From: Magallana gigas
Lineage: Eukaryota
DNA: 64,000 nt
Reading direction: 5' to 3'
Assembly: GCF_963853765.1 (NCBI RefSeq)
Contig: NC_088855.1
Location: 558,001 to 622,000 of the forward strand
The position numbers are program-made. Positions 1 through 58,300 of the stretch are shown piece after piece; position 1 is the first letter of the stretch, and the number at the start of each line of letters is the position of its first letter.

Positions 1-3000
1 ACACTATTTAGATGATTAAGGCAGCTACCGAATCCTATGCAAATACCGCTGTACCTAAGGGAAAGAGGGGAATCTCCACTTATGTCTGGGATTGCTGTAA
101 CAAAACACTGACCATGGCTCCGACCTGATAACCTGTCAATTATGGACCAGCTGCTGTTATGAATCTACATGAATGATGTTAGTCACTATGTATAGTAAGT
201 TTGACAGACATGCTAGTTAGTAAATGACTTTTACCAAGACCCCAGGGATCAAGGGATCACACGTCCCAACACATGCCTAGGGAGCATGTCCACACAAGGG
301 GATCATGCCCACATATGCCTAGGATTCATGCCTACATATGCCTAGGAATCATGCCCACTGTAGCAAACTCCTCCTACCTTTATTTGTTACTAGCTGTTTC
401 AGACCAGATTTACATAGCGTCCTCAAGAAAACGTGTTCTAACTGTGATTTTTCTGACTTGTTGAAGTGTGTCACATTGTTAGCAATACTGGTTTTGTTTA
501 CTAAGGTGAAATTTTCAGCCTTCACATTGGAAGGAACAGGAAATGTCAGAAGACCTGTTAATGATATGGAAGCAATGAGAGATACAGCGAGATAATTGTA
601 TATGTAATGAGACACCAGGATGTGTGAATTCAAAATAGATGAATGAGATGGTGTCGCTTCGTTTGAGCATAATTTGTTATATCCTTCAAGTTTACAACAT
701 GTAATGAAGTTACAGGGAATGAAAATCACTTCTCTGTAAGTGTCAATTCATTAGAAGCTTGTCCGCTATAACCATGTTTCACTGTAAATGTATTGAAGAG
801 AAAATAAAACATACAGTGAGATAAATGTATTCATAGTGAAATAAAAACAAATTCAATAGGATAGTTCTAGGTAGATACACATATGTGCAAATGCATTGGA
901 AACAATGGATATGTAAAGAGATGAATGAAATAGAGATTAGCATAGAAGTTGTTATCAACAAGTGGATACTGTGTAATTAATATTGTTACAATAAGACCTT
1001 CAGAGATTACAGTTTACAATAAAATGTAAAAGAACATTATAGATGAAGTGTGATATTTGTAAATGCAGCGTAAGTATTTTGAATGTACTATGTTTATACA
1101 AAATCAATAATCTATAATTATATGAAATCATCTTTAAAAAAAATTTCCATTGCACCCTGTTTAAGGACAAAAACCATTATAAAACGATTATCTTGCACGT
1201 CATTATTAATTTTAAAGAATGAACATAAGCCAATATTCATTCACACTACTCAGAGTAATGAAAAGTTGAGCGTTCTAGAGTCAAGTCTCTCTAAGACAAA
1301 CCCTAGAGTCAAACAGTGCCATCCACTCCTTCTCTCGTTAATTTCACAAGAAAAGTGCTAGGGGTTGGATCTCCCTTATTATTCAAACATCTATTCCATC
1401 ACAAGCAACATATTGACTTAAAATATTTGAGGTTGATAAATGTTCAAATTTGAAAGATAATAGTCTCTAAATATTTAAGGGCTCATGATTATGAACTACA
1501 ATAACAACAATAAAGAGACTATTTCCTATTTTGATTTCCTGATAAAATGTTCAAATTTGAGAGGTAATGGTCAATTAATATTTATACAATAGCCTTTGAT
1601 AAGAAACAACAGTACAGCAGACCGTTTCCTACCTTTGATTTCGTCTTTGTTCCCCAGTAAGGGACCCAGGGTCTCTGCCCAGATTTTATCTCCACTCACA
1701 TCAGCCATATCAGCCACGGTCAGGGGCCAGACTACGGTGGGGGGAGTCTGGTACAGCTAAAAAATGCGAAACAAATTGTGAGACTCAGATCAAATATTTG
1801 GATATCTCAAAGTTTTTAAACAGTTTCCGAAGTTTGACTGTACTTATCAAAATTGAACTTGCATATTTTATACAAGGTGAACATTTACATATAAGCAGGG
1901 TTCAAAATAAAATTTGTCATCTAATAGAAAGAGATATTTATTTGTCCCTACACCCAGGATTCTATCCAGTTGATACTGAAGTAAGTGTGCAATGTGGTAC
2001 TGCGATGGTCCTTTCTCATACAGAAATACAGCCCTCTTCATCGGTTTCTCCAGGTTTGCTAGCTCGACCTCAAAACGAGCCCCCACCGTAGAGGTCAACT
2101 GGAACTTGTCAACTCCTGTGTGTCTAGTGATGCGCGACATCTTTACTTTCAGTTTCCAATTGTCCTCTGACACACCTAACAAACAAAGAGCGACCACATG
2201 ATCATTTTCTACCTGATTTTTAAAAGTCATGGAAAGTTTTACTCAGAATGTTGCTAACTATATCCTTTTTTAACAGCATTGAGAATATATGGATTCGTAA
2301 GCATTGACACAATTTAATGAAATCATCAAATTAAACATAAAAATACATTTGTTCCTAAAACACATATTTTCAGGAAACTTCTTTCTATTGCTTTTCAAGA
2401 AAGTTCAAAATGAAGAGAAAACCTTTGAGTCCTAGATGAGTCATTAATCGCCTTTCTCTCGAGATTCTGGCCTCTGTGTTTGCATTCCACGTTCTAGCTC
2501 GGCACTCTGACACCATCATCTCCGCAGATGCTGTGGTCTGGGTGTTAACTGCATTTACTGGAACCCCCTGTACTGAGGCTGCAGACCGGATGAACAGTGT
2601 GGCTCCAACGTTAGGCTGAGGTTTCCCAGTGCCAGAATTTTTTGCCACCATCGTCATCAGAGCTGTGAATTTGAAAAAGGGAAACAACTCTTAAAGAAGC
2701 AAACTTTACAATCCTATTTTCTTTTTCAAAAACTTAGTTTACTCTTAAATTACAAGACTAAATTGTCAGGAAAATATTGCTTTACTCTATATATTATTCA
2801 AATCAATGAAAGGAAGGGATTTAATTTCTTTAAATTCTCAATAACATTTCTTGGAATATGTTCCAGAGAAGTTATTATTGAAAAAATAAAATGTATCAAA
2901 TGTAGTGGCTTAAAATAGAAAAAAAATATACTGATAAGTTAAGGTCAAAGGTCATAAAAGAAATTTACACTTTCTAAGCCCCAATGAATACAGAATAAAA

Positions 3001-55300: not shown

Positions 55301-58300
55301 TATCTTTTTAAGCAATGAAAACAGAATTATATAAAAAAAGATACCAACTACTAGTATTCCGGGATTCGAACGTAAACGGAAAGTTCAGTATTTGACTAAC
55401 CTGCGTAACCACTCGACAGAACTAGACTGAAAAAATGGGGAAAATTTAACACACCGTTCTTAAATTTTAGTTAGATTTGTAAAATTATGTCTCTGAGAAA
55501 CAAAAATCGGAAATTGCAGTTTTCAAGAAAATTTCTTGCTATTAATGTTAACGTCAAATCAATTTTGTTTCAGGTAAGCAGTGTTAAGCTACAATGAGAA
55601 TTCCCCGTTAACAAGCTTTAAAATTGTCACATTTTTCTGTGTTTAACCATCTTAAATTTCATTTCAGGATCGTTTTTAAAGTTTGATCGAAGTTTCCAGA
55701 TTTTATTTTACATCGCGTTATGTAAAACGTTAATTTGCTGGTAAAAATTATACGAAATAAAATAATATAATTAAAGATATCAATTATTTAGTATATTTAA
55801 TCGTACAATTGCTGAAAATTAGAACAATATTGGTAATAAGGAATCATTGTTTGGATATTATGAGGTAATAAAATTTACGGTCGGTGCGTGATCAAACCTT
55901 TCATAAGACCCTTAGATAAGGTCGTCCATCCGAATTTTTTCAGACCGGGAGCTACAGATCTGCAGCTAACCCTGACTATAGTGACCATTTTATATAATGC
56001 TCAAAGAATGATTCTGTATTCTTAAATTAAAACAAGCGATTTTTGATTAGGAATGTTTGAAAACTTGAAACGTTAATTTTGTTCACAAAAGATGTAGTAG
56101 TCTATCAAATAGCGTGGTGCAATGAGTTTTAAATGTTGGCGAGCCAAAACTAGTTAAGGATATGGAAATTGTTCATTAATGAAAGTCTGCCGAGTGAAAC
56201 GATTTCTAATTTTTAAATGTATATTCCGTATATATACAACAACCATACAGTAAAGCTACAGGGGCCGCATAGTTCTTTCTGCATAGAACAGCAGAGTTGA
56301 CGGAAAATGAATGACCACCGATCCAAGTGTTTCGGATTTCTGTCCCGTAACGCGCTAATTATCAGTGTGTTAATTGGTGTGGTGGTGGGCTTTGCCTTTG
56401 GTTTTGGACTGAGATCTGTAGAACCGTCCAGTGATGCCCTGACATGGATTGGTATGTACTAACTACGCAATGAAAACTTTCATGAACTTTTAGTTAATTG
56501 TTCGCAAAACTAAACAGTTTTAGAGCTTTTAGCGTTTTCTGAACCACCACACAGTAAATCTAAAAACATACTCTTTCCAGTCACACTGTCAATTGCAAAG
56601 ATGTAAATTGATAGAGACATACAGTGCCATTATCTATTGATTAATATTTAACATGAACACAAGGTTTTAATTGCTCTAGATTACGATTAAATGCATGAAG
56701 AACAGAACTCGAACTTTGGAACCGTGCAAACGAAAAAAGCATACTGTGTTGACGTGTAAACCCTGTCACCCTGTTTTAAAGGGGCATGGTCACGATTTTG
56801 TTCAAATTCTATTTTTCGGTTTTTATTATTTACAATGTTTTAGGAATGCATTTCTAATGATCAAATGGAATTTGAGAACAAATTGTAGAGTTAAAAGCAA
56901 GAGCTCACAATTCTTTGTCATGTAAACAATGCTCGTGCTCTGTTTTTGTTTACATATATTCAATATTTCAGAATCCTTTTCTAGCTAATTTGTCTATCTT
57001 CCTATTAATTTTAAGCATAAGTAAATATTTCCTAACATTTAGCACATTCAATTTAGGTCTAAAACTGGAATTTTCACTTTAACATCCAAAATGTAAACAA
57101 ACGCTTTGTTTACATTGCAAATAATTGTAGGCTATGTAACTCGTTTATAACTTTACGAAAGACTTCCAAATTTGATTGCTTATTAAAAATGCCTCACTGA
57201 AGCAGAGTAAACATTAAAGTCAGAAAAAATTGTGACCATGCCCCTTTAACAAGAAGTTGATAATTGAGACTTACTAATAATATAGGACATTTTTTTTGGT
57301 TATTTTGTTAAAAAAAATTATACTTACCAGCAGCAATTTTATTTTAAACCAAAAAGTAAAAGAACATGAAATTTTTTCTTTACATGAACTGGGTATTCTT
57401 TTGAAATTCTCCCCTGTATCTTTATGCGTTCAATGCAACTTGCGCTTTGGGTTTGGCAAACACATATGCTGCTATATGAACAAAATTTCATAATCAAATC
57501 AAAGGATTCAGAATCAGTTTCATATATTACGCAATTTACTTATAGACATAAAAATTTTAAGGATGATGAACACTGATGAGCACCATTAAGTTGTTTCTTA
57601 CACAGGTCTTCCCGGGGAGATTTTCATGCGTCTCCTGAAGATGCTGATTCTACCTCTTATTGTGGCCAGCATTATCACAGGTAAGAAGATCACACGTGTC
57701 TAAATCACAGGTAAGTAGAACACGTGTCTACATCACAGGTAAGTAAAACACGTGCCTAAATCACAGGTAAGTAGTGAACACGTGCCTAAATCAAAGGTAA
57801 GTAGAGAACACGTGTCTAAATCACAGGTAAGTAAAACACGTGCCTAAATCACAGGTAAGTAGAGAACATATGTCTAAATCACAGGTAAGTAGAGAAAATA
57901 TGTCTAAATCACAGGTATGTAGAACATGTGTCTGAATCACAGGTAAGTAGAGAACATATGTCTAAATCACAGGTAAGTAGAGAACATATGTCTAAATCAC
58001 AGGTAAGTAAAACACGTGCCTAAATCACAGGTAAGTAGAGAACATATGTCTAAATTACAGGTAAGTAGAGAACATATGTCTAAATCACAGGTATGTAGCA
58101 CACGTGTCTGAATCACAGGTAAATAGAGAACATATGTCTAAATCACAGGTAAGTAGAGAACATATGTCTTAATCACAGATAAATAGAGTATATCAGATAT
58201 AATGACCTCATCTATTGCTTGATGTTTGCTTTAAAGGGGCATGGTCACGATTTTGGTCAAAAATTATTTCCCCAATTTTAATGTTTTAATGTTTACAATG

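What the first reader, a model, noticed from the sequence alone, without database searches (positions are those of the whole stretch)
300..58185. Window-wide asymmetry: tandem duplications cluster at or just downstream of 5' splice donors
Seen in sequence, by eye, among ~69 introns: 11 have a tandem duplication starting within ~25 nt of the donor or including it. They are 300-357, 3095-3180, 19281-19347, 34027-34090, 35041-35128, 38914-39004, 40275-40860, 45035-45260, 46917-47004, 51000-53085 and 57672-58185. Five of these (35.1, 39.0, 40.8, 51.0, 57.7 kb) copy the exon end plus GT. Three dinucleotide runs also sit beside donors (31872, 39754, 47948). Only one weak case lies by an acceptor (36460-36555). 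The units are mutually unrelated and occur in five genes on both strands. Inference: a position-specific mutational process (for example slippage or R-loop repair at Pol II/U1 pause sites or at the GC-to-AT boundary), or selection that tolerates repeats only downstream of the first-used donor. I know no description of this as a genome-wide bias in molluscs.
Basis: partly seen in the sequence, partly recalled or inferred. Interest (0 to 1): 0.68.

Follow-up and report, generated by a model that had tools for sequence, protein, structure and literature searches.

The report
Tandem repeats crowd intron 5' ends
In this 64-kb stretch, home-grown tandem repeats sit at or just after the start of introns about three times more often than random placement predicts, which is real here but cannot yet be called a genome-wide rule.

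Summary
TRF or the repeat finder recovers all 11 tandem duplications, the 3 dinucleotide runs and the weak acceptor-side case.

I built my own exon model of 6 genes and 64 introns. Pfam was searched exon by exon. Twelve of the 14 donor-side sites lie beside a supportable donor. The exon at 378-554 is unverified and the donor at 3183 is doubtful.

Of 27 intronic arrays with TRF score >=50, 11 start within 25 nt of a donor or include it, and 2 lie that close to an acceptor. Uniform placement predicts 3.0-5.1 (P 5e-6 to 6e-4). The excess holds in SPT6 alone and in the other five genes alone.

It fades with permissive detection: 15 of 58 against 9.5 expected, P 0.027. The acceptor side is not empty, with 3-6 mostly two-copy duplications.

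Units are unrelated and local. Five arrays copy the exon end plus GT. Their decoy donors are about as strong as the real one, and the frame beyond the real donor closes within 12-90 nt.

Most likely cause: splice-site architecture lets repeats survive and grow on the donor side. A donor-linked mutational input is unproven. No genome-wide test was possible.

The parts
57674..58188 (+). 17.6 x 30-nt array in SLC1/EAAT-like intron 2. It starts 7 nt inside the exon and includes the donor at 57681. All 16 decoy donors are AG|GT.
   Evidence: TRF. Decoys score 9.0-12.1 bits against 11.0 for the real donor. Pfam SDF profile runs 29-51 then 54-93 across the intron.
50999..53085 (+). 65 x 32-nt array in intron 10 of the ACAD11/AidB-like gene. 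It starts 7 nt inside the exon and includes the donor at 51006.
   Evidence: TRF. ACDH-11_C profile runs 1-68 then 70-120 across the intron. 38 decoy donors score >=6 bits. The +1 G column is only 65% conserved.
40280..40858 (-). 8.2 x 71-nt array filling SPT6 intron 7. It includes 40 nt of the exon end plus the donor (first intron base 40818) and ends 25 nt from the acceptor.
   Evidence: TRF. 7 decoy donors, 6 of them AG|GT. HTH_44 profile continues in the next exons.
38894..39041 (-). Two generations of duplication across the donor of SPT6 intron 11 (first intron base 39004): an 87-nt period at 75% identity that includes 37 nt of exon, and a 29-nt period x 2.2 at 38952-39015.
   Evidence: the repeat finder; TRF; decoy donors.
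34998..35166 (-). Old two-copy ~84-nt duplication (74-81% identity) covering 38 nt of exon end, the donor (first intron base 35128) and 46 nt of SPT6 intron 19.
   Evidence: the repeat finder. Decoy CAG|GTAAGT at +83 scores 12.1 bits. YqgF and then HHH_7 profiles lie in the flanking exons.
45034..45260 (-). 7.1 x 31-nt array starting 6 nt after the donor of SPT6 intron 1.
   Evidence: TRF. Unit identity falls from 0.97 at the donor end to 0.84-0.90 at the far end.
46917..47004 (+). 3.3 x 27-nt array, 22 nt after the donor of intron 3 of the ACAD11-like gene.
   Evidence: TRF.
34027..34090 (-). 3.0 x 21-nt perfect array, 20 nt after the donor of SPT6 intron 20.
   Evidence: TRF. HHH_7 exon E 3.6e-38.
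19274..19351 (-). 2 x 39-nt duplication (90% identity) from intron position +2 of DUF4735-gene intron 3.
   Evidence: the repeat finder. DUF4735 profile runs 118-150 then 153-202 across the intron.
42306..42440 (-). About 2.7 x 50-nt array, 25 nt after the donor of SPT6 intron 3.
   Evidence: Permissive TRF, score 167; the repeat finder.
3093..3179 (-). 2.2 x 40-nt array, 4 nt after a doubtful donor (3183) of the FAM69/DIPK-like gene. It may instead lie in a read-through coding end or 3' UTR.
   Evidence: TRF; donor 5.4 bits; read-through PAN_4 match.
269..358 (-). 4.1 x 23-nt array. The exon claimed beside it (378-554) is unverified.
   Evidence: TRF.
31871..31921 (-). (AG)25.5 on the + strand, so (CT)n in the transcript, 10 nt after the donor of SPT6 intron 26.
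   Evidence: TRF.
39754..39815 (-). (AG)31 on the + strand, so (CT)n in the transcript, 8 nt after the donor of SPT6 intron 9.
   Evidence: TRF.
47948..47982 (+). (AG)17.5, 16 nt after the donor of intron 5 of the ACAD11-like gene.
   Evidence: TRF. Acyl-CoA_dh_M profile runs 17-56 then 59-95.
10421..10528 (+). Counter-example: 2 x 54-nt duplication (72% identity) spanning the acceptor of the last RPB11 exon (10522).
   Evidence: TRF; the repeat finder.
4851..4964 (-). Counter-example: 35-nt copies (89% identity, 79 nt apart). One includes the acceptor and 4 nt of exon 4653-4854.
63294..63403 (+). Counter-example: 43-nt copies (72% identity, 67 nt apart). The second ends at the acceptor of SLC1 exon 63403.
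36457..36542 (-).
   Evidence: the repeat finder.

Best explanation
These are independent, locally born minisatellites and dinucleotide runs, not copies of a mobile element.

Each began as a small tandem duplication of about 20-90 nt. Each lies either across the exon-intron junction or just beyond the roughly six intronic bases that the donor needs. The first copy keeps the exon and its own donor, so the mRNA is unchanged. Further copies lie inside the intron, where slippage or unequal exchange can multiply them to 8, 17 or 65 units.

Use of a decoy donor would add a premature stop or a frameshift. Where the exon ends in AG, each decoy is an AG|GT site. The stretch from the real donor to that AG is itself a removable intron, so a mis-spliced transcript could be corrected.

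On the acceptor side, the branch point, pyrimidine tract and AG form a spread-out, distance-sensitive module. An upstream copy creates a competing acceptor, so duplications there survive only as rare, decaying two-copy relics.

The asymmetry is thus mainly one of survival and growth. Local origin, position, decoy strength and frame consequences are shown. Use of the first donor, correction by a second splice, and growth by unequal exchange are inferred. The roughly threefold excess over the intron interior is not explained by tolerance alone. It needs an extra donor-linked input or luck.
For: Position: 11 of 27 intronic arrays lie within 25 nt of a donor, against 2 at acceptors.

Local origin: units occur nowhere else in the window and share at most 14-nt chance words with each other. 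Five arrays contain their own exon's last 7-40 nt.

First donor needed: the frame beyond the real donor closes after 12, 20, 23, 32 and 90 nt. Pfam profile positions continue across the introns from the first donor: SDF 51 to 54, ACDH-11_C 68 to 70, DUF4735 150 to 153, HTH_44 53 to 54.

AG|GT logic: 39 of 64 exons end in AG, but only 12 of 64 downstream exons start with GT. Sixteen of 16 SLC1 decoys and 6 of 7 SPT6 intron 7 decoys are AG|GT. Twelve of the 16 SLC1 decoys have an acceptor score within the range of real acceptors.

Growth only at donors: of 6 arrays with >=5 copies of a >=10-nt unit, 5 are donor-anchored and the sixth starts 80-94 nt after a donor. The three acceptor-spanning duplications all have 2 copies at 72-89% identity.

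Literature: Duan et al. 2024 argue that expansions of repeats carrying an AGGT dual site are less harmful because they can be spliced out (PMC10809524, abstract and Discussion read). A repeat that lengthens the branch point to AG distance lowers splicing (PMC10078293, passages).
Against: Tolerance predicts an even spread over the free part of introns. Even with 50 nt at the acceptor forbidden, 5.1 are expected against 11 seen.

Two separate duplications at one donor at 39.0 kb, and all expanded minisatellites lying in the first 100 nt, look like a local source rather than a filter.

With permissive detection the excess shrinks (15 of 58 against 9.5). The donor:acceptor contrast falls to 13:6 or 18:10.

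Only 5 of about 14 arrays carry donor copies, so the AG|GT argument covers a minority.

No RNA data were available. Which donor is used is inferred from reading frames alone.
Confidence: 0.4

Rival explanations
1. Donor-linked mutational hot spot. DNA at the exon-to-intron boundary breaks or stalls more often, for example through transcription- or splicing-coupled R-loops ending at the GC-to-AT step. Fill-in or microhomology repair then leaves small tandem duplications, which seed arrays. Selection only trims the result.
For: The excess over the intron interior is 11 observed against 3.0-5.1 expected. It appears in SPT6 and in the other five genes separately. Repeat boundaries scatter from -40 to +25 around donors on both window strands, always on the transcript's downstream side. 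Two generations of duplication lie at the 39.0-kb donor. The donor-proximal units of two SPT6 arrays are the most uniform, at 0.97-1.0, against 0.80-0.90 for distal units.
Against: Donors with and without repeats do not differ in exon-end GC (0.47 v 0.48), intron-start GC, purine content or donor strength (all P > 0.2). Junction-spanning duplications also occur at 3 acceptors. The small, low-scoring repeats that should mark fresh events show no donor excess: TRF score 30-49 adds 1 donor-side case among 32 arrays. There are no R-loop, pausing or mutation data.
Confidence: 0.25
2. Chance cluster plus after-the-fact choice. Ordinary intronic repeats happen to lie near donors in this window. The reader picked the pattern and the 25-nt cut-off after seeing it.
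For: This is one window of 64 introns. The pattern was defined post hoc. Significance drops to P 0.027-0.11 with permissive TRF. A simple sign test on which end is nearer is not significant: 18 of 27, P 0.12. A control with interior positions gave as many repeat-positive sites (19%) as donors did (12 of 64), though it was pseudo-replicated by the large arrays. One or two sites rest on unverified donors.
Against: P is 5e-6 to 2.5e-3 under five different nulls. It stays <=0.008 at cut-offs of 10, 25, 50 and 100 nt. Both halves of the data show the excess. A KS test on relative position gives P 0.003.
Confidence: 0.2
3. Selected function. Arrays of decoy 5' splice sites are kept because they recruit U1 snRNP. 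That could strengthen exon definition or suppress premature polyadenylation in AT-rich introns. Alternatively they serve as recursive splice sites.
For: Decoys are about as strong as the real donor: SLC1 9.0-12.1 against 11.0, and SPT6 intron 7 mostly 11.2 against 11.2. The donor motif is intact in nearly all SLC1 units, with columns 88-100% conserved, and in 7 SPT6 intron 7 units. SLC1 units match the shape of a recursive site, with a pyrimidine-containing stretch followed by AG|GTAAGT.
Against: In the 65-unit ACAD array the +1 G of the decoy GT is among the least conserved columns (65%). Only 38 decoys score >=6 bits. The other 8-9 donor-side repeats carry no donor-like site of >=4 bits, or only one or two of 5.0-8.0 bits. 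Unit sequences are unrelated. The host introns are 0.4-2.8 kb, not the very long introns where recursive splicing is known (this last point is recalled).
Confidence: 0.1

Closest known systems
Dual-specific AG|GT splice sites inside tandem repeats (Duan et al. 2024, Genome Biol, PMC10809524; abstract and Discussion read)
   Same: The repeat unit carries an AGGT that could act as a donor or an acceptor. The authors argue that expansions of such repeats are tolerated because the extra units can be spliced out.
   Different: There, both splice sites of the intron lie in the repeat, the intron length is a multiple of the unit, and many repeats are coding (for example UBC). Here the acceptor lies outside the array, the arrays are non-coding, and only 4-5 of about 14 arrays carry AGGT.
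Intron gain by tandem duplication of an AGGT-containing exon segment (Rogers model; Hellsten et al. 2011, PMC3265369, and PMC4974935, both seen only as search listing and abstract start)
   Same: A tandem duplication spanning AG|GT puts an exon-end copy inside an intron.
   Different: That model predicts that the intron start matches the downstream exon start. In all 5 exon-inclusive introns the score equals the shuffle mean. These are existing introns that were lengthened, not new ones.
Recursive splice sites (ratchet points); consensus and host-intron size recalled, and recursion is mentioned in the Discussion of PMC10809524
   Same: SLC1 units read as a pyrimidine-containing stretch followed by AG|GTAAGT, which regenerates a donor after splicing.
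   Different: Known sites are single and lie in very long introns. Here there are 16 in tandem within 0.5 kb of a 1.1-kb intron, and no RNA evidence.
Teleost (AC)m-(GT)n introns (Lin et al. 2016, Genome Res, PMC4691745; abstract and one Results section read)
   Same: A lineage-specific build-up of simple repeats at fixed places relative to splice sites.
   Different: Those introns carry complementary dinucleotide runs at opposite ends that pair. Here TRF finds no second run in the three introns. The runs are CT, CT and AG in the transcript, and most repeats are unrelated minisatellites.
Ordinary intronic VNTRs and minisatellites that affect splicing (Hamanaka et al. 2023, PMC10078293, passages read)
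   Same: Head-to-tail intronic arrays close to splice sites.
   Different: The passages I read state no donor-versus-acceptor positional bias.
Amplified exon-intron segments in vertebrate megasatellites (Descorps-Declere and Richard, bioRxiv 10.1101/2021.07.19.452908, abstract read)
   Same: A DNA segment spanning an exon-intron boundary is duplicated and amplified.
   Different: There the whole exon is repeated and stays coding, and units are far longer. Here only the last 7-40 nt of the exon is copied and the copies are non-coding.

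Membership tests
Local intronic minisatellite / microsatellite | Head-to-tail copies of a short unit | tested here: met
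   TRF; the repeat finder.
Local intronic minisatellite / microsatellite | Unit not dispersed elsewhere (not borne by a mobile element) | tested here: met
   blastn-short of 9 units against the window gave only 11-15-nt chance words outside each unit's own array. This covers the window only; the genome was not searchable.
Local intronic minisatellite / microsatellite | Copy-number variation between individuals | not testable with these tools
   Only one haplotype is available.
Intron gain by tandem duplication (Rogers model) | The intron 5' end is homologous to the start of the downstream exon | tested here: not met
   Local alignment scores of 5-7 against shuffle means of 5.8-7.5 in 5 of 5 introns.
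Intron gain by tandem duplication (Rogers model) | The intron 3' end is homologous to the end of the upstream exon | tested here: inconclusive
   SPT6 intron 7 scores 12 against a shuffle maximum of 13. The other 4 introns are at the shuffle mean.
Dual-specific-site tandem-repeat introns (Duan 2024) | AGGT at the unit boundary | tested here: met
   16 of 16 SLC1 decoys, 6 of 7 in SPT6 intron 7, 2 of 2 in intron 11 and 1 of 2 in intron 19, but only 8 of 38 in the ACAD array.
Dual-specific-site tandem-repeat introns (Duan 2024) | Both splice sites lie within the repeat and the intron length is a multiple of the unit | tested here: not met
   Acceptors lie 25-733 nt beyond the arrays. Intron lengths are 4.52, 8.60, 87.91 and 37.30 units. 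Only SPT6 intron 7 is close, at 7.94 units.
Dual-specific-site tandem-repeat introns (Duan 2024) | The site is used both as a 5' and as a 3' splice site | not testable with these tools
   No RNA data.
Recursive splice site | An acceptor-like tract followed by AG|GTAAGT | tested here: met
   SLC1: 12 of 16 decoys have an acceptor score >=5.4 bits, the 10th percentile of real acceptors. SPT6 intron 7: 1 of 6. ACAD: 0 of 8.
Recursive splice site | Recursive junction or lariat reads | not testable with these tools
   No RNA data.
Teleost-type bridged introns | A complementary simple repeat at the opposite end of the same intron | tested here: not met
   TRF finds one run only in each of SPT6 introns 9 and 26 and ACAD intron 5.
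Satellite carried by a transposon | Terminal inverted repeats around the array | tested here: not met
   Only the four arrays in RPB11 intron 2 lie in 125-nt, 97% inverted arms, and they are not donor-proximal. The flanks of the donor-side arrays were not scanned for inverted repeats. Five of those arrays contain their own exon's end.

The most novel reading that the evidence does not exclude
In this genome the 5' splice site is a birthplace of minisatellites. A transcription- or splicing-coupled process creates small duplications within about 40 nt of donors. The resulting arrays, some made of dozens of full-strength AG|GT decoy donors, expand because the spliceosome can clear them, perhaps recursively. 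Donor-anchored repeats would then be a major driver of intron growth and of length variation at exon borders.
Probability: 0.15. Interest if true: 0.8.

Novelty: new variant of a known kind. Interest (0 to 1): 0.5.

Why it matters
If the bias holds genome-wide, it would show that the two ends of an intron differ in mutational input or in tolerance for repeat birth and growth. It would also point to one route by which short introns lengthen.

There is a practical consequence either way. Arrays of full-strength decoy donors mislead gene finders. My own model placed spurious mini-exons inside the arrays at 40.4-40.8, 51.6-52.7 and 57.7-58.1 kb. The same arrays would make highly variable markers right at exon borders.

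If the bias does not generalise, these are ordinary intronic repeats.

Tried and rejected
1. Interior-position control. 19% of interior sites were repeat-positive, the same as donors. The control samples the same few large arrays many times and measures coverage, not independent starts. I replaced it with per-array placement tests.

Local blastn replaced it.

3. Rogers-type intron gain was rejected.

4. Teleost-type complementary repeats were rejected.

5. A transposon origin for the donor-side arrays was rejected on local uniqueness and exon content. The inverted-repeat scan covered only the RPB11 intron 2 element.

6. Links with donor strength, GC step, purine content or exon length: none found.

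7. Selection on decoy donors from column conservation gave mixed results: intact in SLC1 and SPT6 intron 7, eroded in ACAD.

8. Rfam (gathering thresholds) and tRNA scans of the window found nothing.

9. Ten literature searches found no report of a donor-side tandem-repeat bias.

10. No structure, complex or atlas job was run, because none bears on the question.

Full report
WHAT I CHECKED FIRST. The window has no N and is 35.7% G+C. TRF at score >=30 gives 113 rows. The repeat finder finds the other two: 19274-19351 (2 x 39 nt, 90%) and 34998-35166 (two ~84-nt copies, 74-81%). It also finds the weak acceptor case at 36457-36542. So the repeats are real.

EXON MODEL. I therefore built my own exon model from codon-usage log-odds, splice-site weight matrices and a phase-aware chain, then curated it. 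It has six genes and 64 introns, totalling 35,968 nt with a median of 311 nt:
- a FAM69/DIPK-like kinase gene (-, 1633-6325)
- RPB11 (+, 7780-10560)
- a DUF4735 gene (-, 18030-21490)
- SPT6 (-, 24597-45462, 33 exons)
- an ACAD11/AidB-like gene (+, 46018-53988)
- an SLC1/EAAT-like transporter (+, 56307-63636, running on)

PFAM SUPPORT. Exons were searched in Pfam one at a time: 51 pieces, of which 19 matched the gene's own family at E <= 1e-3. For SPT6, 10 of 33 exons were searched.
- Where it matters most, profile positions continue across the intron: DUF4735 150 to 153 at 19.3 kb, ACDH-11_C 68 to 70 at 51-53.8 kb, SDF 51 to 54 at 57.7-58.8 kb, and HTH_44 53 to 54 at 40.2/39.9 kb.
- At 35.1/34.4 kb, the end of the YqgF profile is followed by HHH_7.
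- The SPT6 exon order also agrees with my recollection of vertebrate SPT6. That is recalled and comes from no call.
I could not test it.

TWO WEAK SITES. The exon beside 300-357 (378-554, minus strand) appeared only at the lowest penalty with score 3.1. It vanished at penalty 12 and has no family match. The donor at 3183 scores only 5.4 bits. The frame reads on to a stop at 3062, and a weak PAN_4 match lengthens from profile 14-39 to 14-49 when read through. That repeat may therefore lie in a coding end or a 3' UTR.

IS IT MORE THAN CHANCE? I merged overlapping TRF rows at the usual score of 50.
- This gives 34 arrays: 27 centred in curated introns, 2 in exons and 5 elsewhere.
- Eleven of the 27 start within 25 nt of the donor or include it. 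Two end that close to an acceptor, and one of those is the 40.8-kb array that also touches its donor.
- Each array was placed at random in its own intron, with 40 nt of overhang allowed at both ends. This predicts 3.77 (P 5e-5).
- Forbidding the last 50 nt raises the expectation to 5.12 (P 6e-4).
- Dropping gene A gives 10 of 26 (P 2.7e-4 to 2.5e-3).
- An overhang equal to each array's own period gives 3.02 (P 5e-6).
- Dropping the four transposon-borne arrays gives 11 of 23 (P 2e-5).
- SPT6 alone gives 6 of 11 against 2.3 (P 0.0013). The other five genes give 5 of 16 against 1.5 (P 0.010).
- Cut-offs of 10, 50 and 100 nt give P 0.002, 8e-4 and 0.008. A KS test on relative position gives P 0.003.

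RESULTS THAT WEAKEN THE CLAIM.
- Permissive TRF settings pick up many weak, AT-rich pseudo-repeats. They give 15 of 58 at donors and 7 at acceptors against 9.46 expected (P 0.027) at score >=50, and P 0.11 at score >=40. At score >=100 the contrast returns: 11 of 25 against 3, P 2e-4.
- A symmetric scan of every donor and acceptor gives 12 v 3, 12 v 4, 13 v 6 and 18 v 10 as the threshold falls from 25 to the 99th percentile of shuffles.
- The acceptor side is therefore not empty. Duplications span acceptors at 4851-4964 (89%), 10421-10528 (72%) and 63294-63403 (72%). Others abut acceptors at 36457-36542 and 37400-37461.
- A sign test on which end is nearer is not significant (18 of 27, P 0.12).
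- All of this is one window, and the pattern was defined after it was seen.

ANATOMY.
- Units are unrelated to each other and absent elsewhere in the window. They arose in place.
- Five arrays copy the last 7-40 nt of the exon plus the donor.
- Their decoy donors are about as strong as the real one: SLC1 9.0-12.1 bits against 11.0, SPT6 intron 7 mostly 11.2 against 11.2, and ACAD 7.3-11.6 against 9.5.
- The frame beyond the real donor closes after 12-90 nt, and unit lengths are not multiples of three or carry stops. Only the first donor gives the protein that Pfam sees.
- At 39.0 kb an older 87-nt duplication and a younger 29-nt one both span the same donor.
- The other repeats begin 2-25 nt into the intron, several just past the donor consensus.
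- Of six arrays with five or more copies of a unit of >=10 nt, five are donor-anchored. The sixth starts 80-94 nt after a donor.
- Of four dinucleotide runs scoring >=50, three lie 8-16 nt after donors. The fourth is deep in a 5.1-kb intron.
- Acceptor-spanning duplications all stay at two diverged copies.
- In two SPT6 arrays the donor-end units are the most uniform.
- In the 65-unit ACAD array the +1 G of the decoy GT is one of the least conserved columns (65%). In the SLC1 array the motif is intact.

HOW IT MOST LIKELY WORKS. I read the pattern mainly as asymmetric survival and growth.
- A donor needs only about nine bases, all kept in the first copy. Anything duplicated across it or after it therefore stays out of the mRNA.
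- 39 of 64 exons end in AG, against 12 of 64 downstream exons that start with GT. Donor-spanning units are thus usually AG|GT sites. The stretch from the real donor to any decoy's AG is itself a removable intron.
- Duan et al. 2024 make the same argument for AGGT-bearing repeats.
- The acceptor module is spread out and distance-sensitive (a passage in PMC10078293), and an upstream copy competes with it.
- This explains why expansions are seen only on the donor side. It does not explain the roughly threefold excess over the intron interior.
- That excess needs a donor-linked source of duplications or luck. The only support for a source is the recurrence at 39.0 kb. The lack of any link with the GC step or donor strength speaks against it.
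- A selected role for decoy-donor arrays is possible for SLC1 and SPT6 intron 7. It fits neither the eroded ACAD array nor the donor-side repeats that carry at most a weak decoy.

COMPARISON WITH WHAT IS KNOWN.
- The closest described ideas are dual-specific AGGT sites in tandem repeats and intron gain by tandem duplication.
- Others are recursive splice sites, teleost AC/GT introns and amplified exon-intron segments in megasatellites.
- The window's arrays fail defining tests for the Rogers model, for intron length being a multiple of the unit, and for complementary end repeats.
- Ten full-text searches found no report of a donor-side bias of tandem repeats, in molluscs or elsewhere.
- Subscription papers and supplementary files, for example those of PMC10809524 and PMC4691745, were not visible and might bear on this.

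VERDICT. The contrast with acceptors is overstated, and two sites rest on unproven donors. The cause is open between tolerance, a mutational hot spot and luck. Only a genome-wide count, which I could not run, can decide.

Noticed in passing
window 29654-30166 (+) and 13459-14035 (-): Two paralogous ORFs, each modelled as one coding exon, encode a hydrophobic protein with no Pfam family (47% identity over 170 aa, E 1e-64). The first is nested, antisense, in the 5.1-kb SPT6 intron 27.
   Followed up: partly
window 8489-9609: A ~1.1-kb element in RPB11 intron 2 with 125-nt terminal inverted arms (97%), built from 16- and 31-nt tandem units. It is probably a non-autonomous DNA transposon. Its four TRF arrays are not independent local repeats.
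   Followed up: partly
window 28861-29369: A 160-nt satellite-like array (2.5-3 copies, about 80% identity) deep in SPT6 intron 27. It is reminiscent of bivalve 160-bp satellites (recalled, not tested).
   Followed up: no
window 14375-14444, 21810-22043, 22107-22388, 22262-22486: Near-identical ORF-like translations recur on both strands, suggesting an interspersed repeat family with head-to-head copies near 22.1-22.5 kb.
   Followed up: no
window 15245-15998: Short translated motifs recur on both strands around a G16 run at 15567-15582. This suggests an inverted or duplicated segment between the genes.
   Followed up: no
window 3646-3701: An in-frame 18-nt x 3.1 coding repeat (His/Gln/Glu-rich) inside predicted exon 3612-3790 of the FAM69-like gene model.
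   Followed up: no
window 24049-24597: The 3' end of SPT6 is unresolved. The frame of the likely last exon (ORF 24049-24351) does not fit the phase left by exon 24597-24664, so a small exon or a different boundary is missing from my model.
   Followed up: no
window 40396-40751, 51621-52738, 57681-58148: My gene finder placed spurious mini-exons inside the decoy-donor arrays, because each unit offers both an acceptor-like and a donor-like site. Automatic annotation may make the same error.
   Followed up: partly
window 2423-2662 (-): A weak match to the end of the FKRP stem domain (E 0.009, profile 185-240 of 245). Exons 1633-2662 may belong to a different gene from the FAM69-like kinase upstream.
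   Followed up: partly
window 60048-60067, 13072-13109: Long homopolymer runs: G20 in SLC1 intron 5, and C15 followed by an A-rich run of 23 nt in intergenic DNA.
   Followed up: no
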